From Actinomycetota bacterium (GTDB lineage: Bacteria > Actinomycetota > Thermoleophilia > Gaiellales > Gaiellaceae), in contig JACDAN010000030.1 of the NCBI GenBank assembly GCA_013695385.1, positions 1-41,202 of the forward strand: DNA of 41,202 nucleotides, given 5' to 3'. Of this stretch, positions 20,808 through 36,033 are shown in pieces. The notes under the pieces were generated by a model, which was not told the origin of the DNA, ran no database searches, and saw only the letters and a program-made list of their open reading frames with translations. The translations under genes were made by a program, and so were the position numbers. Every line of letters begins with the position of its first letter. The first letter of the stretch is position 1.

Positions 20808-20832
20808 GCGGAACGGGCAAAGCCCGTTCCGC
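20808..20832 (-). terminator. 11-bp perfect hairpin 6 nt after the sodA stop
   Basis: 20808-20818 pairs with 20822-20832, with an AAA loop. No U-tract, which resembles the hairpin-only (tract-less) terminators reported in GC-rich bacteria (recalled, not checked here). Confidence 0.5.
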
Positions 20833-20837
20833 CGCCC

Positions 20838-21443
20838 CTAGAGTGCCTGCTCGTATCGCCGACTCACCTCTGGCCAGTTGACGACGTTCCACCACGCGGC
20901 GAGATAGTCCGGACGGCGGTTCTGGTAGCGGAGGTAGTAGGCGTGCTCCCATACGTCGATTCCGAGGATCGGCGTCCTCCCATCGGTGACCGGTGAATCC
21001 TGGTTCGGGGTGGAGGTCAACGCCAGGGAGCGGTCGTCGACGACGAGCCATGTCCACCCGCTCCCGAAGCGCTTGACGCCCCCGTCGTTCACCCCGGTCT
21101 TCAGCTCGTCGAGCCCTCCGAACGTTTCCTGAATCGCCTCCGCGAGAGCACCCTTCGGCTCCCCGCCACCGTCTGGGCTCATGATCTCCCAGAAGAGGGC
21201 GTGATTGGCGTGGCCGCCGGCGTTGTTCCGCACCGCCATCCGTTTCTCCTCGGCTACGCGGTCGAGGCTTCGCAGGATCTCCTCCACAGGACGATCGGCG
21301 AGATCGGTCCCCTCGAGGGCGGCGTTCGCGTTGTCCACGTAGGCCTGGTGATGCTTGTCGTGGTGCACGCGCATCGTCTGCTCGTCGATGTGTGGCTCGA
21401 GGGCGGCATAGTCGTACGGGAGCGGGGGCAGTTCGAACGGCAT
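20838..21443 (-). CDS. sodA: Fe/Mn superoxide dismutase
   Basis: Contains [24 protein letters not shown] and [18 protein letters not shown]. Confidence 0.95.
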
Positions 21444-21520
21444 CTCTTCCTCCTCTACGGGCTCGAAGAGAGCTTAAGGGGCGCCGGCTCGTCCGCGTCG
21501 GCGAGAAAAATTACCGTGGC

Positions 21521-21526
21521 TATACT
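21521..21526 (+). promoter_or_regulatory. Possible -10 element (TATACT) for tRNA-Lys
   Basis: TATACT lies 11 nt upstream of the tRNA 5' end in an otherwise GC-rich context. I recognised no clear -35. Confidence 0.3.
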
Positions 21527-21537
21527 CGCCAGCCGCC

Positions 21538-21610
21538 GGGCCGTTAGCTCAGTTGGTAGAGCAGGGGACTCTTAATCCCAAGGTCGAAGGTTCGAATCCT
21601 TCACGGCCCA
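21538..21610 (+). tRNA. tRNA-Lys (anticodon CTT)
   Basis: Manual cloverleaf: acceptor GGGCCGT/ACGGCCC, D arm GCTC-AGTTGGTA-GAGC, anticodon stem-loop GGGGA-CTCTTAA-TCCCA, T arm GAAGG-TTCGAAT-CCTTC, discriminator A. CCA is not encoded. Confidence 0.9.
21568..21610 (+). repeat. att-like core, proximal copy (3' 43 nt of tRNA-Lys)
   Basis: 42/43 identical to 25162-25204 in the same orientation. Confidence 0.8.
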
Positions 21611-21672
21611 TAGGCGAATGCCCTGGAAACTTGGCTTTGTACGCCACAGCACGCCTGATGGCCCGCGGCACG

Positions 21673-21691
21673 GGTCAACGCAGGGTCAACA
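21673..21691 (+). repeat. 19-nt double-heptamer motif, copy 1 (GGTCAACGCAGGGTCAACA)
   Basis: Read directly, 63 nt after the tRNA 3' end. See copies at 24175 and 25046. Confidence 0.7.
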
Positions 21692-21723
21692 TCCCGTCCG
21701 TGCCGACCGTACCGAATCTGGAA

Positions 21724-21756
21724 TCCGGGCCGGAGGCGCCGTATCGCGCCCCCGGA
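21724..21756 (-). terminator. Imperfect GC hairpin downstream of the CLCA-like gene
   Basis: TCCGGG (21724-29) pairs with CCCGGA (21751-56), and the inner GGCGC (21735-39) pairs with GCGCC (21746-50). It lies 15 nt after the stop at 21771. Confidence 0.35.
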
Positions 21757-21770
21757 CACACGAGTTCGAG

Positions 21771-23999
21771 TCACCACTTCGCCTTGTGGGCCTTCTTCCA
21801 GCGGTCGACGAGTGCCTTCTGATTCTTGGGCACCGAGGGCGGGATCGGGTTGTAGCCCGTGATCGGCTCCTTGCCGGTCGGCCCCTCGCGGTCGACGGTC
21901 GCTGCGAGGAGCGCGCGCCGGCGGACCGCCGGGACCTTAACCTCCCGCTTCAAGTCCTCCGGCTTCAGGCCGGGGCGCTGGCGGTAGAGCTCGTCCAACT
22001 CGAGCACGAACTTGCCCGCGGCCTTCCGTGCGTCCACGACGATCAAGTACTGGCCGGGCATCTCGCCCTTCGTCTGGATGGTGGCCGTATACGTGAACGG
22101 CTCGTTCGGGTCGCCCTTGGCGCCGGTGTGCTCGGTGAACTTGAGCTTGACCCACTTGCCCGAGGGCGTCAGCGCCCATCCGGTCATCTGCGCGCCGGGG
22201 ACGGCGAACGGAGCCCGGAGCCGCGCCCTGACCTCGAGCTCGTTGCCGAGGCGGACGTGGGCATGGACGAGCGAGACGTCGAGCGAGATGTCGTCGTTGA
22301 CCTCGAACCCGACGGTGCGGAAGCGTGTCCCGCCGATCCCGGCGCCGGTGACGCGGACGGTCCACTTACCCCGCTTCGGGTTGTCGATCTCCCAGAAGCC
22401 GTACGGGTACTTGCCCGAGACGCGACGACGGCCGGCACCTGCGGTGATCAGGTTTCCGTCAGGGTCGATCACCCGCACGGTGAACTGTCGCTTCGGCTCG
22501 CTCCAGAGCGCGCCGAGCGTCGCGTGCGTGCTGCCCGCCGTGATCGGCACGGTGAACTCGAAGGAGCGGCGCGTTCCGGCCGACGCGCGTCTCTTGATCT
22601 CGCCGAAGTGCCAGTCGAACGGCGCTGCCTTGTCGGCGGCGGCGCCGTCGGGGCTGGCGCCGTCGATCGGGTTGAAGGAGACGATGCCGCCGTTCTCGCG
22701 GCTCTCGCCGGCGATCTGGACGAGCGCCTCCGTGATCGCCGTCGCCGCCTCGGCCGCCGACAGATCGCCGTCGATCGGGAAGTACGTACCACCGGTCGTA
22801 GTCGCGATGTTCGTGAGGAGGACCGCGTCCTGGTCGTTGCCGAGCCCGATCGTGTACACGCGCACGCCGTTCGCGCGCAGATCCGGGAGAACATCCTCGG
22901 CCGTCTCGGACCCGGCGTTCTGGAGGCCATCGGTGAACAGGATCATCACCTGGCTCGAGGCGCGGCCGCCCGAGACAATGTTGTTCAGGCCGGCGCGCAG
23001 CGCGTCGCCGATCGCGGTCTGCCCGCCGGCGGTGATCCCGTCGACGGCCGTGTGTCGCGTGTTCCGCCAGGTCGTCTGCGCGGCCGCGCCGGACGGCACC
23101 GCCGACTTCCCGAAGGCGAGCGACGCCGACCCCGCGTAGGTCACGAGCCCGAGCTCCTCGGCGGCGTTCACGTAGTCGACCCAGAAGTTCGCGCCGACCT
23201 TGAGCTGGTCGATCTTCGCACCGAGCATGCTGCCCGAGCGGTCGAGGACGAGCATGAAGCGCTGCACGGGAATCAACTGCGTGCAGACAACGGCCGAGGC
23301 CGCTGCAGGCGCGGCCTGCGTCGGCCCACCGGCGCCCGGTGCGGCCAGGCCGTACGGGATCCCGTTGTGGTTGGCGTCGTTCGCCATGTAGGTCCAGCAG
23401 GACTGATTGCCGTTGATGTTGTTCTGGTTGTTGTCGGCGGTCGCGTTGTGGTTGCCGGCGTGGCAGAACTCGGACGGCTGCCCGTTCTGCAGGGTCGCGG
23501 TGCCGCCGGTGAAGGCCGGGAAGAACGTGTCCCAGTCCGGGAAGTCGGCGCCCGCACCGTCGGTCCAACGCGTGTAGCCAGTCCAGGCGTAGCCCTCCAT
23601 GATCGACGCCTGCGTGGCGATGTTCCCGAGGCACGTCGAGCCGTTGTTGTATTCGTCACGGAGGTCGTAGAGGTAGTGGGACAGCTCGTGCGCGAGGATC
23701 GTCGGGTAGAACATGTGGTCCTGCGGCACGTCGAGCGACTCGAACGGGAACCACAGCCGCGCCCCCGTTGAGTTGGACCAGACGTCCGAGTCGAGATGGA
23801 CCCAGATATCGGCGTCCTTGCCGCCCATGCTGTTCGGCGAGATCAGCATCTGCCCGATCGACAGGGCGCCGTCGGTCGAGTCGTGGATGATTCGCGAGAC
23901 CCGCTCGAGCAGCTGGCACCAGAACCCCATCTCACCGGCGGCTGGCGTGAAGCGCAGTGAGACGACCAGGTTGAACTGCGAGCCTGACAGAAAACCCAT
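21771..23999 (-). CDS. CLCA-like zinc metalloprotease - Cys-rich - VWA - beta-sandwich multidomain protein, no signal peptide
   Basis: Trimmed to the ATG at 23999, with GGAGG 5 nt upstream. HELSHYLYDLRDEY has the same spacing as the CLCA catalytic motif HExxH-x6-DEY. The VWA MIDAS is LVLDRSGSM ... ILFTDG. About 300 aa of beta-rich sequence follow at the C-terminus. Confidence 0.85.
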   Translation of the reverse strand: MGFLSGSQFNLVVSLRFTPAAGEMGFWCQLLERVSRIIHDSTDGALSIGQMLISPNSMGGKDADIWVHLDSDVWSNSTGARLWFPFESLDVPQDHMFYPTILAHELSHYLYDLRDEYNNGSTCLGNIATQASIMEGYAWTGYTRWTDGAGADFPDWDTFFPAFTGGTATLQNGQPSEFCHAGNHNATADNNQNNINGNQSCWTYMANDANHNGIPYGLAAPGAGGPTQAAPAAASAVVCTQLIPVQRFMLVLDRSGSMLGAKIDQLKVGANFWVDYVNAAEELGLVTYAGSASLAFGKSAVPSGAAAQTTWRNTRHTAVDGITAGGQTAIGDALRAGLNNIVSGGRASSQVMILFTDGLQNAGSETAEDVLPDLRANGVRVYTIGLGNDQDAVLLTNIATTTGGTYFPIDGDLSAAEAATAITEALVQIAGESRENGGIVSFNPIDGASPDGAAADKAAPFDWHFGEIKRRASAGTRRSFEFTVPITAGSTHATLGALWSEPKRQFTVRVIDPDGNLITAGAGRRRVSGKYPYGFWEIDNPKRGKWTVRVTGAGIGGTRFRTVGFEVNDDISLDVSLVHAHVRLGNELEVRARLRAPFAVPGAQMTGWALTPSGKWVKLKFTEHTGAKGDPNEPFTYTATIQTKGEMPGQYLIVVDARKAAGKFVLELDELYRQRPGLKPEDLKREVKVPAVRRRALLAATVDREGPTGKEPITGYNPIPPSVPKNQKALVDRWKKAHKAKW

Positions 24000-24174
24000 A
24001 GCCCCTCCAGACGTGTCGAGGCCGCAGCAGGATGCTCTCAGGTGAGTGGCGATCATACCCCCACGCGCGCCGGCGTTTCAAGCGACCGAGCGGCGTCGGT
24101 GATACCGGCTCGGATCTTAATCCCTGCACATCCGGGGAGAGCCTGCATACCGGCGATCAGACGCGCCAGGGTGG

Positions 24175-24193
24175 GGTCAACGCAAGATCAACA
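24175..24193 (+). repeat. 19-nt double-heptamer motif, copy 2 (GGTCAACGCAAGATCAACA)
   Basis: Read directly, 51 nt after the internal TCTTAATCCC fragment. Confidence 0.7.
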
Positions 24194-24356
24194 ACCGCTG
24201 GCGCTCGCACCCCCTTTGTAAAGGCGAACCTTCGAGACCGAACTGTTTACGTGGCGCTGCGGGGCGGTTGCTGGGCGCCTCCTGCGGCCCAATCCGTCCG
24301 GCCACAGGGTCGGCCGTCGACAAATCTCCTGTTGCCGGCATGCCTGATATCGGTAG

Positions 24357-24960
24357 ATGAGCGCGGAGAAACGTCGCGTCCTTGGTCTGACGATCGTGGC
24401 CGGCACGGTCTATGCCGCCGTCGTCGAGTACCCGGAGACGCCTGTTTTCAGCGATCCGTTCGAGCGACTCGACGTGGCGCAGGGTCTCGACCCGTCAGCT
24501 CAGCTAGCAGACTTCTCGGCCCGCTTCAAGCAGGAGCTGCGACGAATCAGGCCGGCCGCGGTTGGGGTGCTTAATAGCGCGGCCGCGACGAGCTACGCGA
24601 TCAGTTCGAGAAGGACGCGCAGGCCGCGAACGCGCCTCGTTTCCCGACGCTGATCGAGATGGCTCGGGCAGTCGACTCACCATTCGCGTACTCATTCGTC
24701 TACCGCGTCCTTTCTCAGAGCGGGGCACATCCGTCTCCGCACGGACTGGACTCACTGATCGAGAATCGGCCGGAGAGCGACGGAGTCTTTATCCATGGAA
24801 GGCCGAAAGAAGGGCCGACGATCGAGCCCTACTACCTGGCTGGCGCGCTGTTGTTCATCTCGCTTCGCGAAACAAGCACGCTCGTCCCGTCCTTGCCGCT
24901 GACCGCGGAACTCGACGCTTCGAGCCGGAGTTCCTCGCGCTTCGCAACGCCCTTGGTGCG
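24357..24960 (+). pseudogene. Possible frameshifted gene remnant inside the islet
   Basis: The frame opened by the ATG at 24357 looks coding (GC3-rich) to about 24570. After a TAG at 24575 the coding-like signal continues in another frame, from 24578 to about 24960, with no canonical start before 24659. Confidence 0.3.
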
Positions 24961-25045
24961 GGCTAACGGGGAGGAGGAGCTCAGCCAATCCGTGCGCTGT
25001 GGCGCCGGCAGAACCCACCACTCGCCTCGGTTGACACTCCTGCTC

Positions 25046-25064
25046 GGTCAACGCAAGGTCAACA
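25046..25064 (+). repeat. 19-nt double-heptamer motif, copy 3 (GGTCAACGCAAGGTCAACA)
   Basis: Read directly. It ends 98 nt before the distal att-like copy, and an inverted GTTGAC lies at 25031-25036. Confidence 0.7.
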
Positions 25065-25161
25065 AGCGACCACGAGAACGCCCGAGGCGCCTCGAACTGG
25101 ACTGGCTCAAACGATGCGGCTTTGGGAGGGCCGCCGAACTGCCGCCAGCCCGACAGCAACC

Positions 25162-25204
25162 ACTCTTAATCCTAAGGTCGAAGGTTCGAATCCTTCACGG
25201 CCCA
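25162..25204 (+). repeat. att-like core, distal copy (partial tRNA-Lys 3' half)
   Basis: ACTCTTAATCCTAAGGTCGAAGGTTCGAATCCTTCACGGCCCA has one mismatch (T at 25173 versus C at 21579). There is no 5' half, so it is not a functional tRNA. Confidence 0.8.
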
Positions 25205-25263
25205 CCTCGACGTCCGAACTACCTGCTTACAGGTGCCTAACAGCGCACGACTAGGCTGCGAAC

Positions 25264-26196
25264 GTGAAAGCTCTGCGGCTGTTCCCGCTGGTCGCGCTCG
25301 TCCTCTTCCTCCCGGCCGCCGCATACTCGCCCGCAGGAGAGGCCCGGGTGGGCGCCGACTGCTCCGTCCGCTCGATCGGGCTCAGCGCACTCACCGATCT
25401 CGGAAAGAGGCGCTACCGCGGTCAGGTGGGCGGCCTCTATCCCAGCGGAGCGAACAAACCGCCGCGGCGGCACCTGCAGCGGGGCCTCGCCGCCGCGCGG
25501 CGGGTTCAGCCGATTCGAGGTCGTATCGGCTTCGTCGGACTCGGGATGTCGAACGCCATGCAGGAGTTCGCCGGCTTCACCCGTCTCGCCGGCCAAGACT
25601 CGTCGCTCAATCGGCGCCTGACGTTGGTCGAAGGCGCCGGCGGCGGCTGGGACGCAGTGCGAATGTCTCGGCCGGCGGCGAGGTTCTGGCCCGACCTCGA
25701 CGGTCGGCTCAGGCGCGCCGGGCTCAGCCGCGGGCAGGTTCAGGTCGTCTGGATCAAGCAGGCGATCGCGGGGGAGGATCGCCCGTTCCCCCAGGACGCC
25801 CGCGCACTGCAGACGCATCTTCGAACGCTCGTCCGCACGCTGGGCGAACGCTTTCCGAGGCTTCAGCTCGTCTACGTCTCGAGCCGGACTTTCGGCGGCT
25901 ACGCGATCACCCATCTGAACCCGGAGCCTTTCGCTTACGAAAGCGGCTTCGCAGCCAAATGGCTCGTCCAGGACAGCATCGCGGGCAAGGTGGGGCGCAT
26001 CTGGGTCGGCTGGGGTCCGTACCTCTGGACGGACGGTCTGGCCGGGAGACGCGACGGCCTGACATGGACGTGCGACGACGTCCAGCAAGATGGAACGTAT
26101 CCCTCGCCGGAGGGCGTCCGCAAGGTTGCACGGCTGCTCCACGACTTCTTCAAGGCTGATCCGACCACCAAGCTCTGGTACGCGCCCGCCGGCTGA
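25264..26196 (+). CDS. Secreted hypothetical protein
   Basis: GTG start and signal peptide MKALRLFPLVALVLFLPAAAYS. The GLGMSNAMQEF motif is faintly reminiscent of esterase GxSN blocks. I do not recognise a family. Confidence 0.6.
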   Translation: MKALRLFPLVALVLFLPAAAYSPAGEARVGADCSVRSIGLSALTDLGKRRYRGQVGGLYPSGANKPPRRHLQRGLAAARRVQPIRGRIGFVGLGMSNAMQEFAGFTRLAGQDSSLNRRLTLVEGAGGGWDAVRMSRPAARFWPDLDGRLRRAGLSRGQVQVVWIKQAIAGEDRPFPQDARALQTHLRTLVRTLGERFPRLQLVYVSSRTFGGYAITHLNPEPFAYESGFAAKWLVQDSIAGKVGRIWVGWGPYLWTDGLAGRRDGLTWTCDDVQQDGTYPSPEGVRKVARLLHDFFKADPTTKLWYAPAG

Positions 26197-26226
26197 CCGT
26201 TTTCCGGCCCCCGTAGGCTCCAGCCC

Positions 26227-27264
26227 GTGAAGGTCTTCTCGATCGTCGGGAATCGGCCGCAGTTCATCAAGTCCGGGCCGATGTCGCTCGCGCTTCGCGA
26301 CCGGGGAGTGGAGGAGATCGTCGTCCACACCGGGCAGCACTACGACCGAGAGCTCTCGGAGATCTTCTTCTCGGAGCTCGACCTGTCCCGGCCGGCCTAC
26401 GAGCTCGACCTCCGCACCGCGGATCCAACCAGGATCGAGGACGCTCTCGCCGAGCCGATCGCCACCGAGCAGCCGGACTGGGTGCTGGTGTACGGGGACA
26501 CGAACTCCACGCTCGCGGGAGCCAGAGCTGCGGGAGACACGTCAGTCGCGCACGTGGAGGCCGGGCTCCGAAGTGGCGATCTGGAGATGCCCGAGGAGCG
26601 AAATCGCATCGAGGTCGACCGCCGCTCCGCGCTGCTGCTCACCCCGGACGAGCGGTCGAAGGACGTGCTGGAAACGGAAGCCGTCTCCGGCCGAATCGAG
26701 GTCGTCGGCGACGTGATGGCGGACGCGAATCGCCGTTTCGCGCCGATTGCCCGCGAACACTCGACGATCCTTCAGGAGCTGCGCCTCGAACCCGGCGCCT
26801 ATGCCGTCGCCACCGTGCACCGGGAGGCAAACGTTCGCCCCGGCCGGCTCGGGCACATCCTCGAGGGCTTGTCCCGAGTAAGCGGGCCGGTGATCTTTCC
26901 CGCGCACCCCCGGGCACGCGAAGTCATTGCAAGTAACAGACTGTTACTTGGAACGAATCTCGCCCTCGTCGCTCCACAGGGGTACCTGGACTTCGCAGCC
27001 CTCGCCTCTCAGGCCAGGGTGATCCTCACCGACTCGGGGGGCCTCCAGAAGGAGGCGTACTGGTACGGCGTCCCCTGCGTGACTCTCCGTCCTTCGACGG
27101 AGTGGAAGGACACGGTGGAGCTCGGCGCGAACACTCTCGTCGACGACGATCCCGAGGCGATTGCCGAGGCAGCGGCGAAGGTGCGCATCTCCGCCGAGCG
27201 CCCGCCGCTCTACGGCGACGGGCACGCCGCCGAACGCATCGCTGACTTGCTCGTTAGCCTTTGA
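26227..27264 (+). CDS. UDP-N-acetylglucosamine 2-epimerase (non-hydrolysing; WecB/WbpI-like)
   Basis: Contains MKVFSIVGNRPQFIK...HTGQHYD...VYGDTNSTLAG...HVEAGLRS...PEERNR. Confidence 0.9.
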   Translation: MKVFSIVGNRPQFIKSGPMSLALRDRGVEEIVVHTGQHYDRELSEIFFSELDLSRPAYELDLRTADPTRIEDALAEPIATEQPDWVLVYGDTNSTLAGARAAGDTSVAHVEAGLRSGDLEMPEERNRIEVDRRSALLLTPDERSKDVLETEAVSGRIEVVGDVMADANRRFAPIAREHSTILQELRLEPGAYAVATVHREANVRPGRLGHILEGLSRVSGPVIFPAHPRAREVIASNRLLLGTNLALVAPQGYLDFAALASQARVILTDSGGLQKEAYWYGVPCVTLRPSTEWKDTVELGANTLVDDDPEAIAEAAAKVRISAERPPLYGDGHAAERIADLLVSL

Positions 27265-27266
27265 CA

Positions 27267-28577
27267 ATGCTTGAAGAGCGAACACAGCCCCAGGCGCCCG
27301 GAGAGCCGGAGACGCAGACCTGGGACGCCGCAGTCGTCGGCGCGGGCTACGTCGGGGTGCCCCTTGCGCACACGCTCGGATCCGCGGGCCGCTCCGTGAT
27401 CCTGATCGATGTCTCGGAGCAGGTCGTCGACGGACTGAACCGAGGCGAGAGCCACATCGTGGACGTGCCCTCCGAGCAGCTCGCGCCGCTCGTCGAGAGT
27501 GGCCGGATCCGAGCGACGACCGACTACGACGTCCTCCGAAATGCGGACGCGGTGCTGATCGCGCTTCCCACGCCGCTCTCGAAGCAACGCGAGCCCGATC
27601 TCTCGATCGTGATCGGGGCCGCCGAGCAGATCGCCGCCAGGCTCAAACGCGGGCACCTCGTGATCCTCGAGTCGACGACCTACCCACGGACGACGCGGGA
27701 CATCATCCGGCCGATCCTCGAACGGAGCGGGCTCGAGGCCGGCCGCGACTTCAGCCTCGCGTACTCGCCGGAGCGCGTCGACCCGGGCAACAGGGCGTGG
27801 ACGACGAAAACGGTCCCGAAGGTGGTCGGCGGAGTCACCCCCGAATGCACCGAGCGCGCGGCCAGGCTCTACGAGGGCGCCGTCGACACCGTCCACCGCG
27901 TTTCGACGCCGGAGGCGGCGGAGCTGACGAAGCTCCTGGAGAACATCTTTCGCTCGGTCAACATCGCGCTCGTCAACGAGCTTGCGCAGCTCTGCGAGCG
28001 GATGGAGATCGACGTCTGGGAGGTGATCGAGGCTGCGGCCACGAAGCCCTTCGGCTTCATGAGCTTTCAGCCGGGACCGGGCCTCGGCGGCCACTGCATC
28101 CCGATCGACCCCTTCTACCTGACCTGGAAGGCGCGCGAATACGACTTCGCGACCGAGTTCATCGAGCTTGCCGGGAAGGTGAACGAGAACATGCCGTACT
28201 ACTGCCGCTCGCTCGTCTCGCAGGCGCTGAACCACGGTCGCCAGCGCTCGCTGAGCGGCTCGAAGGTGCTCGTGCTCGGCGTCGCCTACAAGGCTGACAT
28301 CGGCGACACGCGCGAGTCGCCCGCGATCAAGCTGATCGAGCTGCTGCGAACCGCGGGGGCCGAGGTCGCCTACCACGATCCCTTCGTCCCACAGCTCTGC
28401 GAGGCCGAGCTGTCGTCGGTCGACCTCGATCCAGAGGCTCACGACTGCGTCGTGATCGTGACCGCCCACTCCCAGCTCGACTACGCCGACCTCGTCAGGC
28501 GCTCCCACGTCGTCGTCGATCTACGGAACGCGACCGGCAAGGAAGGGCGGGCGAATCCGAAGGTCTGGACGCTGTGA
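27267..28577 (+). CDS. UDP-N-acetyl-hexosamine 6-dehydrogenase (nucleotide-sugar dehydrogenase; WecC/WbpA-like)
   Basis: NAD fold VVGAGYVGVPLA and the catalytic Cys region GGHCIPIDP. The ATG at 27267 could be replaced by the TTG at 27261, which overlaps the upstream stop. Confidence 0.9.
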   Translation: MLEERTQPQAPGEPETQTWDAAVVGAGYVGVPLAHTLGSAGRSVILIDVSEQVVDGLNRGESHIVDVPSEQLAPLVESGRIRATTDYDVLRNADAVLIALPTPLSKQREPDLSIVIGAAEQIAARLKRGHLVILESTTYPRTTRDIIRPILERSGLEAGRDFSLAYSPERVDPGNRAWTTKTVPKVVGGVTPECTERAARLYEGAVDTVHRVSTPEAAELTKLLENIFRSVNIALVNELAQLCERMEIDVWEVIEAAATKPFGFMSFQPGPGLGGHCIPIDPFYLTWKAREYDFATEFIELAGKVNENMPYYCRSLVSQALNHGRQRSLSGSKVLVLGVAYKADIGDTRESPAIKLIELLRTAGAEVAYHDPFVPQLCEAELSSVDLDPEAHDCVVIVTAHSQLDYADLVRRSHVVVDLRNATGKEGRANPKVWTL

Positions 28578-29551
28578 TCCGGGTCGGCCTCGCCGGGCTC
28601 GGCTATTGGGGCCCGAACCTGGCACGCAACTTCGACGACCTCTCTGACCTCGTCTGGCTCTGCGACCTCTCGACAGACCTTCTCGAACGGTTCGGTGCGC
28701 GCTATCCGAACGCGAGGACAACAGCACGTTTCGAGGACCTGCTCGAGGACGAATCCCTGCAGGCCATCGTGGTCGCGACGCCTGTCACGACTCACTTCGA
28801 CCTCGCGCGCCAGGCGCTCGCAGCCGGCAAGCACGTGTTCGTCGAGAAGCCGCCCGCACTCTCGGCGAGCGAAGCCGACGAGCTCGTCGCCCTGGCCGAG
28901 GAGCACGACCTCGTTTTGCTCCCGGGGCATCTCCTTCTCTACCACCCAGCGGTCGCCAAGATGAAGGCGCTGATCGACTCCGGCGAGCTCGGCGACATCC
29001 GGTACCTCTATGGGAACCGCCAGAACCTCGGCCAGATCCGGATCGACGAGAACGCACTCTGGTCGCTCGGCGTCCACGACCTCTCCGTGATCCTCCATCT
29101 CCTCGGAGAGGAGCCGATCGAGGTCTGGGCCCGAGGCGAGTCGTTCATCCACAAGGGTGTCGAGGACGTCGTGTTCTGTTACCTCCGCTTCCCGTCCGGG
29201 GTCGTCGCGCACATGCATCTGTCATGGCTCGACCCGCACAAGATGCGGAAGATGACCGTGGTCGGCTCCAAGAAGATGGCCGTCTTCGACGACATGGAGC
29301 TCGAGCGGAAGGTGACCGTCTACGACAAAGGAACCGAGCAGCGGGCCGAGAGCTATGGGGAGTGGCGGACCCGGACGGGCGACATCTACATCCCGAAGAT
29401 CCCGAACGACGAGCCTCTGCGCCTGGAGTGCCGACACTTCCTCTCGCTGGCCGCCGGTGACGGCGACCAGATGACGGCGGCGCGCGAGGGAGCAGTAGTC
29501 GTGCGCGTGCTCGAGCAGCTGCAAGCCTCCCTCGAGCGAGCGCCGGTCTGA
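28574..29551 (+). CDS. Gfo/Idh/MocA-family oxidoreductase (WbpB-like)
   Basis: The GTG overlaps the upstream TGA. Contains VGLAGLGYWGPNLARN and the EKP motif FVEKPPA. Confidence 0.85.
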   Translation: MIRVGLAGLGYWGPNLARNFDDLSDLVWLCDLSTDLLERFGARYPNARTTARFEDLLEDESLQAIVVATPVTTHFDLARQALAAGKHVFVEKPPALSASEADELVALAEEHDLVLLPGHLLLYHPAVAKMKALIDSGELGDIRYLYGNRQNLGQIRIDENALWSLGVHDLSVILHLLGEEPIEVWARGESFIHKGVEDVVFCYLRFPSGVVAHMHLSWLDPHKMRKMTVVGSKKMAVFDDMELERKVTVYDKGTEQRAESYGEWRTRTGDIYIPKIPNDEPLRLECRHFLSLAAGDGDQMTAAREGAVVVRVLEQLQASLERAPV

Positions 29552-29628
29552 GCTTCCAGACCGGACAGAACGTCGTCGTCTACCCCGGCACCGTCATCGG
29601 GGAGAGCTGCCAGATCGGCGACAACGTC

Positions 29629-30198
29629 GTGCTCGGCAAGCAGCCTGCGCTCTCCCCGCGCTCGACAGCGCCACGGGACGAGCTGCCGCCGCTCGAGCTC
29701 GGCGAAGGCACGATCGTCTCGGCCGGCGCGATCGTGTTCGCGGGGACGAAGATCGGCGCTCGGGTCATCCTTGGCGACCAGAGCTGCGTGCGGGAACGGT
29801 GCGAGCTCGGCGACGACGTCGTGGTCGGTCGTGGATCGCTCGTCGAGAACGACACGACGATCGGTGCGCGGACGAAGATCCAGGCGAACGCCTACGTGAC
29901 CGCCTACTCCACCCTCGAGGAGGACGTGTTCATCGCGCCGTGCGTGGCGACGACGAACGACAACTTCATGGGGCGGACCGAAGAGCGGCATGCCCTGCGC
30001 AAGGGCCCGACGATCCGCCGTGGAGCTCGAATAGGCGGCGGCGCCGTGATCCTCCCCGGAATCGAGATCGGCGAGGAGGCGTTCGTCGGCGCGGGAGCGA
30101 TCGTGACCCGCAACGTCCCAGCCAGGGCCGTGGTCGTCGGCAGCCCCGCGCGGCAGATCCGCGAAGTCCCGGAGGATGAGCTGCTCGGGCAGCCCTAG
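29629..30198 (+). CDS. Left-handed beta-helix (hexapeptide) acyl/acetyltransferase (WbpD-like); true start probably upstream
   Basis: Hexapeptide repeats run throughout. The first canonical start is the GTG at 29629, but hexapeptide-like coding continues in frame back to the CTG at 29548. Confidence 0.8.
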   Translation: MLGKQPALSPRSTAPRDELPPLELGEGTIVSAGAIVFAGTKIGARVILGDQSCVRERCELGDDVVVGRGSLVENDTTIGARTKIQANAYVTAYSTLEEDVFIAPCVATTNDNFMGRTEERHALRKGPTIRRGARIGGGAVILPGIEIGEEAFVGAGAIVTRNVPARAVVVGSPARQIREVPEDELLGQP

Positions 30199-31826
30199 CG
30201 CCGAACGATGCGGAGGAGGTAGGGCGTCGCGCCCGGCCCCGCGATCTTGACCTGCAGGTAGTAGACGCCCGCCTTCCGCGCGCGATAGCGGACGACCTCC
30301 ACACCACTGGCGCCTGCCACCGGTCGTGATCCGGCGACGGCCAGCGACCTCACGTCGTCCACACGACGCGTTCCCGGTCTCCAGAGGACGACGTCGACGG
30401 CGGCATCCGCCTGGCTGAGCGTCGCCACCAAGCGGCCACGGCGCCGCAGACGAATGGCGTAGACGTCGTTCGGGTCGTCCCAGAAGTCGAGCGAGGCCGG
30501 AAGGTTGACCGTTTTCCTGCGAACCCGGGCTGCATGGCTTCCGGCGTCGTCGTTGGTCTCGAATTGGTCCACCGTCGCAAAGCGACCTGCGTGATCCACT
30601 GCTGCGGCGACGTCCAGCCGGCCCCAACCGCTCGTTGCGTCACGGCCCTCGGTACAACGGCGGCAGCCGGTCGCCGGGGTCATGTCGGTCGACGTTCGCT
30701 CGATCAGGCTGACGATCTGGCCCGCGCGCAGACCAGGCCAGGATGCGCGCACGAGCACCGCGCCGGCCGAAACGACGGCTGCCGCGAATGAGGTCCCCTG
30801 CGCGCGGCGATACTCGGAAGGCCCGCACTCCGAGTACCCCTGCGCATCACAACTCGGGTTCAGGGCCGTGAGCCCCCGCGGCAGTGTCGAGAAGAGCTCG
30901 TCACCCGGTGCCGCGATGTCGTTGTAGATCGGATCTCGATTGGAGAAGGCCGGGACCGACCCGTCCCGCGCCATCGCGCTGACGCCGAGGACGTGGGGCA
31001 GCGCAGCCGGGTAGCTTGCGTAGCGCCATGGCTGCTCGGGGGCCTGGTCGCCGTTCCCGACGGCTGCCACGACGATGACGCCCTTCCGTACGGCGTACTC
31101 GACCGCGCTCGCCTCCAGCCGGGAGAAGCCGTCTCGCGATGCGTCCTGTGGATCGCGAATGCCACCGAGACTGAGGTTGATCACCCGGGCATGGTTGTCC
31201 ACCGCCCAGCGGATCGCACGAGCCTCGGCCTCGAGCGGAACGACCCCGTCGGAGCGCACGACCTTCGCCACGAGCAGCTGGGCGGGGAACGCCATGCCGG
31301 CGATCCCCTCGTCATTGTTCAGCGACGCCGCGATCAGACCGGCGATGAACGTCCCGTGGCCCTGCAGATCCGTCCGAGCCGACCCGCCGACGAAGCTGCG
31401 GGCGGCGGCAATCCTTCCTGCCGGAAACTCGGGGTGCCCCGCGTCGATTCCCGAGTCGATGACAGCGACCCGCATTCCCGGCAGCGTCGGCCGCTGTGCC
31501 CAGGCCCGGAACGCATTGACGGCCTGGAGGTGCCACTGGCGGGGGGCCAGAGGGTCGTTGGGAGTGAACGCGAGCCTGCGACCGCGGCCCTCGAGCCGCT
31601 CCACGTACGCCACGCCGGGAAGCCGCGCTATCCCGCGGGCGCCGCGTGCCTCGAGGACGAAGGCGAACGGCGCCAAGGGCTCGACCGTCCCGCCGGTCCG
31701 CCATTCGACGGCCGCACCGAGCCGTTCGACATTCGCGCCCGGTGCAACACCGACGGCGAAGCGGGCCGCGTCCGCACCGGCGGGGAGCGCCAGCGCGAGG
31801 GCCGCGGCGGCGAAAACAGGCCTCAC
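30195..31826 (-). CDS. Secreted subtilisin-like (S8) serine protease with a C-terminal beta domain
   Basis: Signal peptide [20 protein letters not shown]. Catalytic triad contexts are [16 protein letters not shown] and GTSFAAA. Confidence 0.85.
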
Positions 31827-33460
31827 GGAGCCACCACCAGCGCCGGGCTGGTGCCTGCCACGAGGCCGCGACCCGGAGATGCGACCACAGCTCGGTAGCT
31901 GCCCGGCTGAACATCGACCCGTGCCGAAAAGGTGCCGCCTTCGACGATCGTCGTCTTCGCAACCGTTCGCCAGGACTGGCCGGCGAGTCGCTGAAGCTCC
32001 ACCGCTGCTCCCACGATCCCGGGTTTCACGACGCCGTTCAACTCCATGAGGTCGACCGCGGGGTTCAGCCGCACCTGTGGTGCGACCCCCAGGCGGATAG
32101 CAGCCGTTCGGACGGCGCCGGCGGCGACGCGATACTCGGCCGTCGCCGTCGGGCGGACGGCAACGGCGAACGTCCCGTCACGAGCAGGCTTCGGCGTGGC
32201 AACGCCTCGCCACCCGGAGGGGCCGCGGTGCTCGAGCGCAACCCGTTCGAGGCCGCGGGCGATTCCCGCCAGGCGGGTGGTGGTGCCGAAGACGTGAGGT
32301 TTCGTCGGCGTCGGCAGTGCGAGAACTCCTACGCGGAACCAGGACGACCGGAGGTCGAGCTCTCGCCGGAGGTCCCCTCCGCGCGCCGAGCCCTCTCCAC
32401 GGGATCCCATGCCGATCACGGTGTCGACGCGCGACGAAGCGTTCACCGTTGTCCTGACATCGAGCAAGCGGCCGGGAACTTTGAGCACCCGCCGCAGCCG
32501 CGCGGCGGGAACGGCGATCGGGCCCCAGGTGTGATGCGGAGAGATCGAGTCGTACGGATCGTCCACCGCGACGAGGTAGGGCGTCGGCTTCGAGCCGGGC
32601 CAGACGTCGGCGACGGAGGCCGTGCGCCCCCCCGAGGTCGAGTGAAAATAGGCGATCACGAGTCGCGTTCCGTGCATGAGCACCTCACCGGCCGTCTCGT
32701 CGACCGCGGCGTTCGTCGACTCCTCCTCCTCGTCGATCCCGCGGTAGACCTGGCTTCTCACGTCGGGGAAGAGATCGAACGCCCCGCCCGTCTTCTTCGT
32801 GGCGAGCGCATAGGAGCGAGCCGCCACCGCCTGGGCCTTCAGGACCTCGGCGGGCCAGTGGTCGGGGACCTCGGCGGGGACCACGCCGTACAGGTACTGC
32901 TCCAGGCCGACGACGTTGATTGCTCGAAGCCTGCGACCGGTGACGTCCACCTGGATCGCCCCACGGTACGGACGCCCGAATCTCAGTGGCTCGTTGCCCG
33001 GGAGAAAGACAAGCGGCCCCTCGAGCGCTTTCGATTTCTTCATCCCCTTCGCCTTGAGCTTCAGTCCCGGGCCGAAGACGTGCTTGCCGGCGTCCAGCGC
33101 ACGGGTCTTCCCGGTCGCATCGCGGACACGGAACGGCGCCTCGGAGGAGATCGTCAACGACGGCTTGCTCCCCGCAAGCAGGACTCGAACCTTTGCGACT
33201 GGCGCACCGCCGATCGTGGTACCACGGTAGTAGTGCCCGAGGATCCGGCGATAGTCGTAGCCGCGGCGTGCCAGGCCATGGGCTCCCCACTGGCTCATCC
33301 CGACTCCGTGGCCCCAGCCGCGGCCCGTGATCACGAAGACAGGGTCGCCGGCCCGCATGGCAGGCGTCTCCTGCCTCCCTCGCTGGGGTCTGGCCAGGGC
33401 GAGGCCCACCACGAGGAGCGCAGCGAGGACGCCGGCTATGAGGGCGAGGCCGCGAGACAT
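31823..33460 (-). CDS. SpoIID/LytB-domain protein (lytic transglycosylase / amidase-enhancer family)
   Basis: N-terminal TM anchor. Contains [11 protein letters not shown] and ...[31 protein letters not shown]. The stop overlaps the S8 GTG start. Confidence 0.85.
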
Positions 33461-33588
33461 GATCGTGAGTGACCCGAGTTCCGTGGAACTCCGTCTGAGG
33501 CTAGCGGATCCCTCTACGGATCCCAGTGACGCAAACGGTTTCCTAACACGGCAAGTTTCTCCTGCACCTCACCGGGAAAACTCTTGCC

Positions 33589-35022: not shown

Positions 35023-35031
35023 GCTAGGCCG

Positions 35032-36033
35032 ATGCGAATTCTCGTCACCGGCGCGGCCGGATTCATCGGCTCGAACTTCGTCCACTACTGGCTGGAGCGC
35101 CATCCCGGCGACGAGGTGATCGCGCTCGATCTGCTGACGTACGCCGGCAACCGAGCGAACCTCGAGGACGTCGAGGAGCCAATCACGTTCGTCGAGGGCG
35201 ACATCGCGGACGCCGATCTGGGTCGGCGCCTGTTCGAAGATCACGGCGCCGACGTCGTCGTTAATTTCGCCGCCGAGTCCCACAACAGCCTTGCCGTCGT
35301 CGACCCGAGCCGTTTCTTCCGCACGAACGTGATCGGAACTCAGACGCTGCTGGACGCCGCTCGCCAGACCGGAACGGTCAAGCGGTTCCATCATGTCTCG
35401 ACTTGCGAGGTCTACGGCGATCTCGCGCTGGACACGGACGAGGTGTTCACGGAAGACTCTCCGTACGAGCCACGGACGCCGTACAACGCCTCGAAGGCCG
35501 GTGCCGACCACGCCGTGCGCGCGTACCACGAGACCTATGGGCTCCCGATCTCGATTACGAACTGCTCGAACAACTACGGGCCGTACCAGTTCCCGGAGAA
35601 GGTGATCCCGCTCTTCGTGACCAACGCGCTGGACGACAAGCCGCTGCCGATGTACGCGTCGACGCAGAACAAACGCGAGTGGCTGCACGTCCGCGATCAC
35701 TGCCGCGCGATCGAACTCGTCCTCCAGTCGAACAAAGTGGGCGAGACGTACAACGTCGGATCAGGAGTCGAGGCCTCGATCGAAGAGATCGCCGACCTCG
35801 TCCTGAAACACACCGCCAAGCCGCACTCGCTGAAGACGATCGTCCCGGACCGGCCGGGCCACGACCGCCGCTACCTCCTCGACTCGTCGAAGCTGCGCCG
35901 GGAGCTCGGCTGGGAGCCGGAGATCGGCTGGGAGGACGGCCTGCGTGAGACCGTGGAGTGGTATGCGGCGAACCGCGAGTGGTGGGAGCCGCTCCGCGAT
36001 CGCGCCCCGGTCGAGGAAACTGCCTGGCGCTAA
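35032..36033 (+). CDS. rfbB: dTDP-glucose 4,6-dehydratase
   Basis: Contains ILVTGAAGFIGSNF, HVSTCEVYG and YNASKAG (YxxxK). Confidence 0.95.
   Translation: MRILVTGAAGFIGSNFVHYWLERHPGDEVIALDLLTYAGNRANLEDVEEPITFVEGDIADADLGRRLFEDHGADVVVNFAAESHNSLAVVDPSRFFRTNVIGTQTLLDAARQTGTVKRFHHVSTCEVYGDLALDTDEVFTEDSPYEPRTPYNASKAGADHAVRAYHETYGLPISITNCSNNYGPYQFPEKVIPLFVTNALDDKPLPMYASTQNKREWLHVRDHCRAIELVLQSNKVGETYNVGSGVEASIEEIADLVLKHTAKPHSLKTIVPDRPGHDRRYLLDSSKLRRELGWEPEIGWEDGLRETVEWYAANREWWEPLRDRAPVEETAWR

What the first reader, a model, noticed from the sequence alone, without database searches (positions are those of the whole stretch)
21538..25204. tRNA-Lys-anchored 3.6-kb islet bounded by a 43-nt direct repeat but lacking any recombinase
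Seen: nt 21568-21610 run from the anticodon loop to the discriminator base of tRNA-Lys-CTT. They recur in the same orientation at 25162-25204 with 42/43 identities; the single C/T difference is at 21579/25173. Identity ends exactly at the tRNA 3' end in both copies.

Established: duplication of a tRNA 3' segment is the footprint (attL/attR) of site-specific integration by tyrosine-recombinase elements.

Seen: no six-frame ORF between the repeats looks like a recombinase. The only solid gene is the leaderless CLCA-like protein, and the remaining ~1.1 kb looks like decayed coding sequence. A 10-nt piece of the same core (TCTTAATCCC, 24115-24124) splits the interval into ~2.5-kb and ~1.0-kb modules.

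Inference: this is a stranded integrative islet, perhaps two tandemly accreted elements, that delivered the CLCA-like gene.
Basis: partly seen in the sequence, partly recalled or inferred. Interest (0 to 1): 0.72.

Follow-up and report, generated by a model that had tools for sequence, protein, structure and literature searches.

The report
Gutted conjugative-element remnant at tRNA-Lys
This 3.6-kb insert beside a lysine tRNA gene is the leftover of one or two self-transmissible actinobacterial elements that lost their integrase and transfer genes by deletion, which is an ordinary, well-known kind of genomic fossil that still carries one intact imported gene.

Summary
tRNA-Lys(CTT) lies at 21538-21610, and its last 43 nt recur at 25162-25204 with 42/43 identity. 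Two related Gaiellaceae genomes have the empty site: the same tRNA is joined directly to sequence orthologous to 25205 onward. The interval is therefore an insertion.

The missing recombinase is explained. The right-hand 1 kb consists of codons 1-73 of a 165-aa gene fused at 24576/24577 to codons ~128-256 of a DUF5677 gene. In other metagenomic contigs the intact 165-aa gene sits next to tRNA-Lys(CTT), followed by a kinase and a tyrosine integrase. [quoted passage not shown]

A 19-nt motif, GGTCAACGCAAGGTCAACA, occurs three times and only inside the islet. In four relatives it starts exactly 62 nt after the tRNA end. It is probably an integrase arm-type site. Two diverged copies of the tRNA-proximal arm argue for two elements in tandem.

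The islet fits the definition of a cis-mobilizable element (CIME). The TCTTAATCCC piece is arm sequence, not a core remnant. The zincin-VWA gene has a Shine-Dalgarno sequence, so it is not leaderless. This is a new member of a known kind, of modest interest.

The parts
21538..21610 (+). tRNA-Lys(CTT), intact. Its 3' part serves as attL.
   Evidence: ARAGORN. The surrounding 95 nt are 98% identical to the tRNA region of the empty-site relative L002.
21568..21610 (+). attL identity segment (43 nt), from tRNA position 31 to the discriminator base.
   Evidence: Direct repeat D3. The sequence is identical in the tRNA genes of L002, L003, L100, L101 and L106.
21611..21691 (+). P' arm A. Element DNA begins at 21611. 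The 19-nt motif GGTCAACGCAGGGTCAACA lies at 21673-21691, 62 nt after the tRNA end.
   Evidence: Homology to the empty sites ends at 21610. The motif is found, with 0 expected by chance. The spacing is the same in L100, L101, L105 and L106.
21771..23999 (-). Intact cargo gene of 742 aa: an N-terminal HExxH zincin-like domain, a VWA domain, two beta-sandwich domains and a C-terminal helix (CLCA-like architecture). A Shine-Dalgarno sequence GGAGGGG lies upstream of ATG 23999.
   Evidence: Pfam VWA E=8e-16 and CLCA_N only E=0.064. There are 95 homologues at 32-97% identity. H104, E105, H108, D115 and E116 are invariant in 42 sequences. The AlphaFold model has pLDDT 90.6. The CLCA1 VWA domain is the second-best PDB profile hit. 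The SD sequence is shown.
24000..24113 (.). Region upstream of the VWA gene, ending at the junction between the two modules. 24103-24113 (ACCGGCTCGG) may be a vestige of the 3' end of an internal att core.
   Evidence: In alignment A4 this stretch falls where ACGGCCCA lies in the relatives, and motif B starts 62 nt after it. The similarity is weak (6/10). No P-arm homology is detectable to its left.
24114..24193 (+). P' arm B of the right-hand module. It includes TCTTAATCCCTGCA (24115-24128) and the motif GGTCAACGCAAGATCAACA (24175-24193).
   Evidence: The arm is homologous to the P' arms of L100/L101 (56% in the spacer) and L106 (48%), against 35% to arm A. L106 carries TTCTTAATCCCTGCA directly after its intact tRNA.
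24357..24575 (+). Fragment of 'gene A': codons 1-73 of a 165-aa gene. In relatives this gene is the first gene after the P' arm and precedes a PD-T4-6-like Ser/Thr kinase.
   Evidence: P0102 (78-79% identity) and P0103. Contexts are in L100, L101 and L102.
24576..24577 (.). Deletion junction. Homology to gene A ends at codon 73 (AAT, 24573-24575) and homology to DUF5677 starts at 24578 (RGRDELR...).
   Evidence: Read from the translations against P0102 and P0097, and from the tblastn coordinates.
24578..24966 (+). Fragment of a 256-aa DUF5677 gene, codons ~128-256, with a -1 frameshift near 24917. The C-terminal EPEFLALRNALGAG* is in another frame.
   Evidence: P0097 is 85-86% identical over residues 131-241. 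Pfam DUF5677 gives E=4e-5, below the gathering score. The ORF 24562-24966 is listed.
24967..25161 (+). P arm, carrying the motif GGTCAACGCAAGGTCAACA at 25046-25064, 97 nt before the attR core.
   Evidence: The layout, with repeats on both sides of a 43-nt identity segment, matches the attP of the AICE pACPL (PMC3364876).
25162..25204 (+). attR identity segment, 42/43 identical to attL (T instead of C at 25173).
25205..26196 (+). Original chromosomal right flank (CCTC..CTTAC..CTAACAG) and the 310-aa gene. It is not part of the element but defines the element's end.
   Evidence: It aligns with the sequence that directly follows tRNA-Lys in L002 and L003.

Best explanation
[quoted passage not shown] Integration was carried out by a tyrosine integrase, through a 43-nt identity segment that runs from the anticodon loop to the discriminator base.

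Most likely two related elements sat in tandem, and each lost its backbone (int, xis, repSA, tra) by one large deletion. Three things are left:
- both outer att cores;
- the cis-acting arms, with a 19-nt, 11-nt-phased double heptamer (GGTCAAC x2) that is probably the integrase arm-type binding site;
- pieces of the cargo region that lies between the P' arm and int in this family. These are one intact zincin-VWA (CLCA-like) gene and two gene fragments fused at 24576/24577.

The islet cannot move by itself. Because it keeps attL, attR and the arm motifs on both sides, it fits the definition of a CIME (cis-mobilizable element). It could in principle be excised, or co-excised, by Int/Xis supplied by an incoming element of the same family.

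Shown: the insertion, the family relationship, the deletion scar, and the motif with its conserved spacing. Inferred: that the motif binds Int, that two elements rather than one were involved, and that the islet can be mobilized in trans.
For: 1. Insertion. Empty sites exist in two Gaiellaceae genomes. The synteny break is exactly at 21610/25162, and the flank after attR is orthologous to the flank after the tRNA in those genomes.

2. Same site, same arm, with an integrase. L100, L101 and L102 carry tRNA-Lys(CTT), then (in L100 and L101) the motif at +62, then gene A and a kinase. In L101 a tyrosine integrase follows (PF00589, E=8.5e-22).

3. That integrase clade comprises 130 hits, about 50 of them at 77-87% identity. 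It sits in L105 (Xis-Int, then Lamassu-like cargo, the motif, and tRNA-Lys) and in L106 (FtsK/SpoIIIE, RepSA at E=1e-111, Xis, Int, cargo, the motif, tRNA-Lys). Both lie next to a wecB gene cluster like the window's.

4. Deletion scar. Gene A codons 1-73 abut DUF5677 codons ~128-256 at 24576/24577, and there is a later frameshift.

5. The motif occurs three times, only inside the islet and always on the + strand, with 0 copies expected by chance. It starts exactly 62 nt from the tRNA end in arm A, L100, L101, L105 and L106, although the spacers are only 24-56% identical.

6. The AICE pACPL has a 43-nt identity segment flanked by two 21-nt repeats that resemble the Int-bound arm sites of pSAM2 (PMC3364876). 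General AICE biology is taken from PMC2440964.

7. Two arms. Arm B resembles the L100 and L106 arms more than it resembles arm A (35%).

8. CIME definition and the accretion model: PMC5704250.
Against: - No related element was recovered with both ends. The P-arm motif at 25046 is therefore seen only in this window, and the full length and gene order of the parent are unknown.
- There is no intact internal att core. The proposed vestige at 24103-24113 is weak, and no P arm is detectable to its left. The two-element model therefore needs a deletion that ended almost exactly at the core/arm B boundary.
- The link between the DUF5677 gene and the AICE family is positional only. Its closest intact homologues sit on short contigs without a tRNA or an integrase.
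- Binding of Int to the motif has not been tested. L102 lacks the motif.
- Homologues of the VWA gene are never next to tRNA-Lys or the motif elsewhere, so how it came to be in this element is not shown.
Confidence: 0.85

Rival explanations
1. There was a single decayed element, not two. One AICE integrated at tRNA-Lys, and the VWA gene together with a second copy of the arm arose by internal rearrangement or by recombination with a related element. In this reading arm B is an internal relic rather than a former attL.
For: There is no intact internal core and no P arm left of 24113. The 10-nt core-like piece is not significant and belongs to the arm.
Against: Arm B lies the same 62 nt from a core-like end as the true arms do. 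In L100 and L101, arm B-like sequence plus gene A sits directly next to the tRNA. Arms A and B are only 35% identical in the spacer, so this is not a recent local duplication.
Confidence: 0.22
2. The islet is not a fossil but an actively hitch-hiking CIME. Int/Xis from a resident or incoming AICE of the same clade excises it through attL x attR, and it transfers with the helper element.
For: attL and attR are 42/43 identical. The arm motifs are retained on both sides, in the layout of a functional AICE attP. The integrase clade is abundant in soil metagenomes and in Gaiellaceae MAGs. Cis-mobilization of CIMEs is documented, including in Streptomyces (PMC5704250).
Against: There is no helper element in the 41-kb window. 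No circular or empty-site junction was observed in the same species; L001 also carries the islet. The right module is pseudogenized.
Confidence: 0.2
3. The 43-nt copy is the remnant of a locally duplicated tRNA gene, and the interval is ancestral chromosome rather than an insertion.
For: None beyond the repeat itself. Composition is close to the flanks: GC is 0.667 against 0.673.
Against: Empty sites exist in two relatives. The same tRNA carries integrase-bearing elements with homologous arms in five other contigs. The repeat starts at the anticodon loop, as att identity segments do (PMC2440964, PMC3364876).
Confidence: 0.02
4. The islet is a prophage or satellite remnant rather than a remnant of a conjugative element.
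For: Phages of actinobacteria also use tRNA 3'-end integration with a ~43-bp core, for example mycobacteriophage L5 (from my own knowledge). The GGTCAACGCA unit forms an iteron cluster in one viral contig, L098.
Against: The linked integrase clade sits beside RepSA (pSAM2 replication initiator, E=1e-111) and FtsK/SpoIIIE, not beside phage genes. There are no close relatives of the integrase in 2.9 million viral contigs. The att + motif pattern is absent from viral contigs.
Confidence: 0.03

Closest known systems
CIMEs (cis-mobilizable elements) and tandem accretion, as defined for ICESt1-related islands of Streptococcus thermophilus. Cis-mobilization of accreted islands has also been reported in Streptomyces (Guedon et al. 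2017, PMC5704250).
   Same: The islet is bounded by attL and attR of a site-specific integration system at the 3' end of a target gene. [quoted passage not shown] It carries adaptive cargo.
   Different: The host is an uncultured Gaiellaceae lineage and the parent is a pSAM2-type AICE rather than a Firmicutes ICE. The internal att site is not preserved. Mobilization has not been demonstrated.
pSAM2-type AICEs, e.g. pSAM2, and pACPL of Actinoplanes sp. SE50/110 (PMC2440964; PMC3364876).
   Same: The target is a tRNA 3' end. The identity segment is 43 nt, exactly as in pACPL. It is flanked on both sides by ~20-nt direct repeats made of two 11-nt-phased sub-repeats, which in pSAM2 are the arm-type Int sites. 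Relatives of the islet carry Int, Xis (HTH_17), RepSA and FtsK/SpoIIIE.
   Different: The window itself retains none of the four backbone genes. The target is tRNA-Lys(CTT), not tRNA-Pro. The repeat sequence is different (GGTCAAC versus GTCACCC). The family has a variable cargo slot between int and the P' arm.
AICE remnants described in Streptomyces coelicolor (Sco3997) and Salinispora arenicola (Sare1208) (PMC2440964).
   Same: These are degenerate AICEs left in the chromosome after partial deletion.
   Different: Those remnants still encode an integrase, an excisionase or a Rep protein. This one keeps only att sites, arms and cargo.
Bacterial CLCA / CLCA_X zincin-VWA proteins (Lenart et al. 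2013, PMC3650047).
   Same: The cargo protein has an invariant HExxH...DE motif followed by a VWA domain and beta-rich domains. Its taxonomic distribution is patchy, its neighbourhood is not conserved, and it is associated with mobile DNA.
   Different: The Pfam CLCA_N match is below threshold for this protein (E=0.064). There is no signal peptide-like N-terminus. The function is unknown.

Membership tests
CIME (cis-mobilizable element) | Flanked by attL and attR of a site-specific integration system | tested here: met
   The 43-nt repeat is 42/43 identical and lies at the tRNA 3' end. The insertion is proven by empty sites.
CIME (cis-mobilizable element) | Has lost its own integration/excision and transfer genes | tested here: met
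   Six-frame Pfam search at E<=1 finds no recombinase. tblastn with the clade's Int, Xis, RepSA and FtsK finds nothing in the window.
CIME (cis-mobilizable element) | Derived from an ICE or IME by decay | tested here: met
   A deletion scar fuses two gene fragments. Homologous arms and gene A lie in integrase-bearing elements at the same tRNA.
CIME (cis-mobilizable element) | Can be excised or transferred when a related element supplies Int/Xis | not testable with these tools
   This needs an excision assay or population junction reads. Only the retention of cis sites is shown.
AICE (pSAM2 type): membership of the parent family | Tyrosine integrase, integration into a tRNA 3' end via an identity segment | tested here: met
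   L101, L105 and L106 have PF00589 integrases in elements abutting tRNA-Lys(CTT).
AICE (pSAM2 type): membership of the parent family | Excisionase, a RepSA-type replication initiator and an FtsK/SpoIIIE-type Tra | tested here: met
   In L106, RepSA is PF20199 at E=1e-111, Xis is HTH_17 at E=1.6e-10, and the FtsK_SpoIIIE C-terminus scores E=2.2e-6 in a gene cut by the contig end.
AICE (pSAM2 type): membership of the window's islet itself | Carries the int, xis, rep and tra modules | tested here: not met
   None is present. The islet is a remnant, not an AICE.
AICE (pSAM2 type): attP architecture | Identity segment flanked by repeated arm-type Int-binding sites | tested here: inconclusive
   The sequence layout matches: the motif lies 97 nt to the left and 62 nt to the right of the core, and the spacing is conserved in relatives. 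Protein binding has not been tested, and the P-arm copy is seen only in this window.
CLCA-like zincin-VWA proteins | N-terminal HExxH metalloprotease domain of the CLCA_N type | tested here: inconclusive
   HExxH and a downstream DE are invariant in 42 homologues. Pfam CLCA gives only E=0.064 here, although PF08434 is on record for four homologues. No solved structure matches the N-terminal domain.
CLCA-like zincin-VWA proteins | VWA domain following the protease domain | tested here: met
   PF00092 at E=8e-16. The CLCA1 VWA domain 6pyo scores E=6.9e-12 by profile, and 6pyx has TM 0.82.

The most novel reading that the evidence does not exclude
In this Gaiellaceae AICE family, the stretch between the P' arm and int acts as an exchangeable slot for anti-phage genes. 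Relatives carry Lamassu-like, PDC-S19 and PD-T4-6-like kinase modules there. On this reading the solitary, widely transferred cytoplasmic zincin-VWA (CLCA-like) protein kept intact in the islet would be a new single-gene defence or conflict factor. The gutted islet would persist as a trans-mobilizable cassette for it.
Probability: 0.15. Interest if true: 0.55.

Novelty: new member of a known kind. Interest (0 to 1): 0.3.

Why it matters
The result explains an apparent oddity, an att-bounded islet without a recombinase, as ordinary decay of a known element type. It also pinpoints the deletion junction.

As a by-product it documents three things:
- a pSAM2-type AICE family that uses tRNA-Lys(CTT) in Gaiellaceae, an uncultured soil lineage for which I found no ICE literature in the library searched;
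- a candidate arm-type site with strictly conserved spacing;
- a cargo slot in that family that holds defence systems.

It also corrects the gene calls in the identical public contig of GCA_020063825.1 (L001), where the called 98-aa and 193-aa genes are really pseudogene fragments, one of which reads through attR.

None of this changes current concepts.

Tried and rejected
- Metagenome scan with the gene A alignment returned only the contig already in hand, so no complete element with both ends was obtained.
- Viral-contig scans gave three results. The motif + core pattern had no hit. The 18-mer motif gave 7 hits, of which 6 lie inside coding sequence and are chance, and one is an unrelated iteron cluster in L098. 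The integrase found only distant relatives at 20-35% identity.
- A P arm to the left of the internal junction was looked for by local alignment of 23990-24130 against 25000-25180. The score was 28 against a shuffle mean of 27.6, so this was rejected.
- PADLOC gave no hit for the VWA protein, the fused fragments, gene A or DUF5677. No defence assignment is made.
- Contexts of nine VWA homologues showed no tRNA, no motif and no conserved neighbour. Nucleotide homology is confined to the CDS. The idea that the VWA gene always travels with this att system was therefore rejected.
- The fold search of the full-length model was dominated by VWA domains and could not classify the N-terminal domain.
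- TCTTAATCCC as a remnant of the anticodon loop was rejected.

Full report
**Observation.** ARAGORN finds one tRNA in the 41-kb window, tRNA-Lys(CTT) at 21538-21610 on the + strand. The repeat finder returns a 43-nt direct repeat, 21568-21610 and 25162-25204, with a single C/T difference at 21579/25173. The repeat runs from tRNA position 31, one base before the anticodon loop, to the discriminator A. Identity stops there in both copies (…GGCCCA|TAGG versus …GGCCCA|CCTC). By my own arithmetic a chance match of this quality in 41 kb is about 1e-15.

**It is an insertion.** The window comes from a Gaiellaceae genome. Locus L001 (GCA_020063825.1, JAITZH010000132.1) is 99.99% identical to window 20816-36196 and also carries the islet. 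I scanned one genome per species with the 310-aa protein encoded just right of attR. This returned two other Gaiellaceae contigs, L002 and L003, with that protein at 72% identity.

- In both contigs the order is SOD, tRNA-Lys(CTT), the 310-aa gene, wecB, with only ~45 nt between the tRNA and the gene.
- BLASTN synteny of L002 with the window runs up to 21610 and resumes at 25162.
- In the alignment, the sequence after attR (CCTC…CTTAC…CTAACAG) is homologous to the sequence after the intact tRNA in the empty sites. The sequence after attL (TAGGCGAATGCC…) is not.

**No recombinase inside or nearby.** All six frames of 21611-25161, with stops masked, give no recombinase family in Pfam at E<=1. 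The only hit is a weak DUF5677 match. tblastn with the integrase, excisionase, RepSA, FtsK and cargo proteins of the relatives described below finds none of them anywhere in the window. The rest of the window encodes housekeeping functions: SUF, cytochrome oxidase, TatC, SOD, nucleotide-sugar enzymes and Lon.

**What the ~1.1 kb of decayed coding sequence is.** A protein search with the fused reading frames found two separate families.

- Window 24357-24575 encodes the first 73 residues of a 165-aa protein, which I call gene A (P0102 at 78-79% identity; also P0103).
- From 24578, in another frame, the sequence matches residues ~128-241 of a 256-aa DUF5677 protein (P0097, 85-86%). The last 14 residues (EPEFLALRNALGAG*) lie in a third frame, after a -1 shift near 24917.
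- Homology to gene A ends at the AAT codon 24573-24575, and homology to DUF5677 starts at 24578.

So 24576/24577 is a deletion junction. It joins the 5' end of one gene to the 3' half of another. The ORFs called in L001 (98 and 193 aa, the latter reading through attR) are artefacts of this fusion.

**The parent family.** The intact gene A lies on three metagenomic contigs: L100, L101 and L102. Each carries tRNA-Lys(CTT) directly upstream and a Ser/Thr kinase directly downstream. In L101, three small ORFs further on, there is a partial tyrosine integrase on the opposite strand (PF00589, E=8.5e-22), with the catalytic RHR...Y motifs visible. The left flanks differ among these contigs (COX2/PGA_cap in L100, wecB in L102), so these appear to be separate insertions in different genomes at the same tRNA.

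A search with that integrase fragment gave 130 homologues. About 50 of them are at 77-87% identity and most of those are ~370 aa. Several come from Gaiellaceae MAGs. Two longer contexts were retrieved:

- L105 has Xis (HTH_17) and Int. These are followed by convergent cargo, then tRNA-Lys(CTT) and the wecB operon.
- L106 has FtsK/SpoIIIE (cut by the contig end), RepSA (PF20199, 'Replication initiator protein, pSAM2', E=1e-111), Xis, Int and six cargo genes. These are followed by tRNA-Lys(CTT) and the wecB operon.

This is the canonical backbone of pSAM2-type AICEs. Such elements integrate into the 3' end of a tRNA gene through an identity segment shared by attP and attB (te Poele et al. 2008, PMC2440964). 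In all of these contigs the order, read from the tRNA, is: tRNA, arm, variable cargo, then int pointing towards the tRNA.

The window keeps the arm, part of the cargo and the far arm, but nothing of the backbone. A deletion from gene A codon 74 to DUF5677 codon ~127 accounts for this in the right module.

**A conserved arm motif.** GGTCAACGCAAGGTCAACA occurs at 21673, 24175 and 25046, always on the + strand. It occurs nowhere else in the window, with 0 copies expected in shuffles even when three mismatches are allowed. It consists of two GGTCAAC heptamers 11 nt apart.

In arm A of the window and in L100, L101, L105 and L106, the motif starts exactly 62 nt after the last base of the tRNA. The intervening spacers are only 24-56% identical. 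L102 lacks the motif. A motif at fixed distance within diverged sequence points to a protein-binding site.

The layout has a close published counterpart. In the AICE pACPL the att identity segment is 43 nt at a tRNA-Pro 3' end. In attP it is flanked by two 21-nt repeats (GTCACCCAGTTAGTYACYCAG) that resemble the pSAM2 arm-type sites, which bind Int and are needed for recombination (Schwientek et al. 2012, PMC3364876). Here, attL x attR recombination would rebuild an attP with the motif 97 nt left and 62 nt right of the core. I therefore read the motif as the integrase arm-type site. That is an inference; binding has not been tested.

**One element or two.** The islet contains two P'-type arms.

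- Arm A (21611-21691) abuts the real attL.
- Arm B (24114-24193) aligns without gaps to the arms of L100/L101 (56% in the spacer) and L106 (48%). It is only 35% identical to arm A.
- The gene that follows arm B in the window is the same gene that follows the arm in L100 and L101.
- In that alignment the bases preceding arm B (ACCGGCTCGG, 24103-24113) fall where the tRNA end ACGGCCCA lies in the relatives, and motif B again starts 62 nt later.

The simplest history is two related elements in tandem at the tRNA. That is the accretion scenario described for ICE/IME/CIME arrays (Guedon et al. 2017, PMC5704250). Each element was then gutted by one deletion. The left deletion would have removed the backbone, the P arm and nearly all of the internal core.

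There are two caveats. The core vestige is weak, and I found no P-arm homology to its left. I put about 0.6-0.65 on two elements and 0.2-0.25 on a single rearranged element. If decay is taken as a clock, the right module (all pseudogenes) is older, and the VWA module entered later at the tRNA-proximal site. That is also an inference.

**The 10-nt 'core piece'.** TCTTAATCCC at 24115 is real but is not evidence on its own. Ten-mers of the core occur at six other places in the window, and a random 3.5-kb interior contains one with P of about 0.17. More tellingly, L106 has TTCTTAATCCCTGCA two bases after its complete tRNA. The 14-mer TCTTAATCCCTGCA is therefore the start of this type of P' arm, not a leftover anticodon loop.

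**The cargo gene.** The gene at 21771-23999 (- strand) encodes a 742-aa protein.

- Homologues start at MGF…, so the ATG at 23999 is the start. It is preceded by GGAGGGG four nt upstream, so the mRNA is not leaderless. The N-terminus does not look like a signal peptide.
- Pfam finds a VWA domain (E=8e-16) and only sub-threshold CLCA_N and M64 matches.
- H104, E105, H108, D115 and E116 (HELSH…DEY) are invariant in 42 homologues.
- The AlphaFold model is confident (pLDDT 90.6, pTM 0.93). It shows an N-terminal alpha/beta domain, a VWA domain, two beta-sandwich domains and a terminal helix.
- Structure and profile searches match only VWA domains. The CLCA1 VWA domain is the second-best profile hit.

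'CLCA-like' is therefore a fair description of the architecture. Patchily distributed bacterial CLCA and CLCA_X proteins are already described (Lenart et al. 2013, PMC3650047).

The 95 homologues (32-97% identity) come from Actinomycetota, Bacteroidota and other MAGs. In nine contexts examined the gene is solitary and has no conserved neighbours. There is no tRNA and no motif, and nucleotide homology ends at the CDS borders. The neighbours include an rve transposase, RHS toxins, an Eco57I-type enzyme and a NACHT/caspase/patatin cluster. The gene is clearly mobile, but its arrival on this element is inferred from position only.

**Cargo slot in relatives.** PADLOC assigns the following:

- L105 cargo to Lamassu (LmuB, E=2e-46, plus a SIR2 protein);
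- the first L106 cargo gene to PDC-S19 (E=5e-153);
- the kinase next to gene A to PD-T4-6 (E=4e-32).

The VWA protein, gene A and DUF5677 have no PADLOC match. This makes a defence role for the VWA gene a reasonable guess, but it is not a finding.

**Composition.**

- The islet GC is 0.667, against 0.673 for the window.
- Its tetranucleotide distance to the rest of the window is about 2 SD above same-size controls.
- VWA GC3 is 0.93, the fragments are at 0.74-0.75, and the neighbouring genes are at 0.78-0.90.

This is mildly atypical, as expected for an element circulating among related hosts.

**Verdict.** The islet is a CIME-like remnant of pSAM2-type AICE(s) at tRNA-Lys(CTT). The recombinase was lost by deletion, and the scar of that deletion is visible. 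This is a known kind of object, so novelty is 'new member of a known kind' and interest is modest.

The points worth keeping are the arm motif with its fixed spacing, the AICE family in Gaiellaceae (I found no paper linking Gaiellales with ICEs in the library searched), and the intact zincin-VWA gene sitting in what is a defence-cargo slot in its relatives.

Noticed in passing
L098:2360-2545 (IMGVR_UViG_3300027773_000007): An intergenic cluster of eight GGTCAACGC(A) units, two of them forming the exact 18-mer of the islet motif. It lies in a 60-kb viral contig between a RecA-like ATPase gene preceded by a primase-like gene (both assigned by eye, not scanned) and a small ORF. It looks like an iteron or operator array. 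The link to the islet is probably coincidental, but the repeat unit is the same.
   Followed up: partly
window 24225-24235: CGAACCTTCGA is the reverse complement of the 11-mer TCGAAGGTTCG of the att core. It lies 32 nt right of motif B. Together with TCTTAATCCC at 24115, this puts two core-like pieces in arm B. They could be chance (P~0.17 each) or extra integrase core-type half-sites.
   Followed up: partly
L105:1787-5906; L106:7457-9465; L101:229-1808; L102:4685-4945: In related elements the cargo between the P' arm and int consists of defence-type genes. These are a Lamassu-like LmuB + SIR2 pair, PDC-S19 plus a NERD protein, gene A plus a PD-T4-6-like Ser/Thr kinase, and a TIR-domain fragment.
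   Followed up: partly
L082, L084, L085-L092 (contexts of VWA homologues): The zincin-VWA gene is always solitary and sits in unrelated neighbourhoods: an rve transposase and RHS toxin, an Eco57I-type methylase, a NACHT/caspase/patatin cluster, or plain housekeeping genes. Identities reach 76% in a MAG labelled Gammaproteobacteria and 52% in Bacteroidota, which suggests frequent single-gene transfer by an unknown route.
   Followed up: partly
window 24357-24653 and 24659-25240 (= L001 3542-3838 and 3844-4425): On the identical public contig of GCA_020063825.1 (L001), the gene calls held in the collection list a 98-aa and a 193-aa protein here. Both are pseudogene fragments, and the second ORF reads through the attR core into the flank.
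   Followed up: yes
window 21608-21614 versus L002 4755-4761 and L003 1887-1893: In the empty sites the discriminator A is followed by CC(T), so part of the CCA end is encoded. After integration it is followed by T (TAGG), as in all five other occupied sites (T after the A). The occupied tRNA gene therefore depends fully on CCA addition and has a different 3' trailer.
   Followed up: no
window 25264-26196: The 310-aa protein right of attR has no Pfam family. It does have 38-47% identical homologues in many Planctomycetota, Verrucomicrobiota, Bacteroidota and other MAGs. This is a widespread uncharacterized family.
   Followed up: no
L102:513-1817; L105:6082-7644; L106:9830-10991: In these Gaiellaceae-like contigs, tRNA-Lys(CTT) and wecB are adjacent but divergently oriented, without the 310-aa gene between them. 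In the window, L002 and L003 they are co-oriented with that gene between them. The tRNA-wecB neighbourhood has been rearranged within the group.
   Followed up: no
L106:5032-5481: A second HTH_17 (excisionase-like) gene of 149 aa lies in the cargo region of the L106 element, far from the xis-int pair. It may be a trace of an earlier accreted element there too.
   Followed up: no
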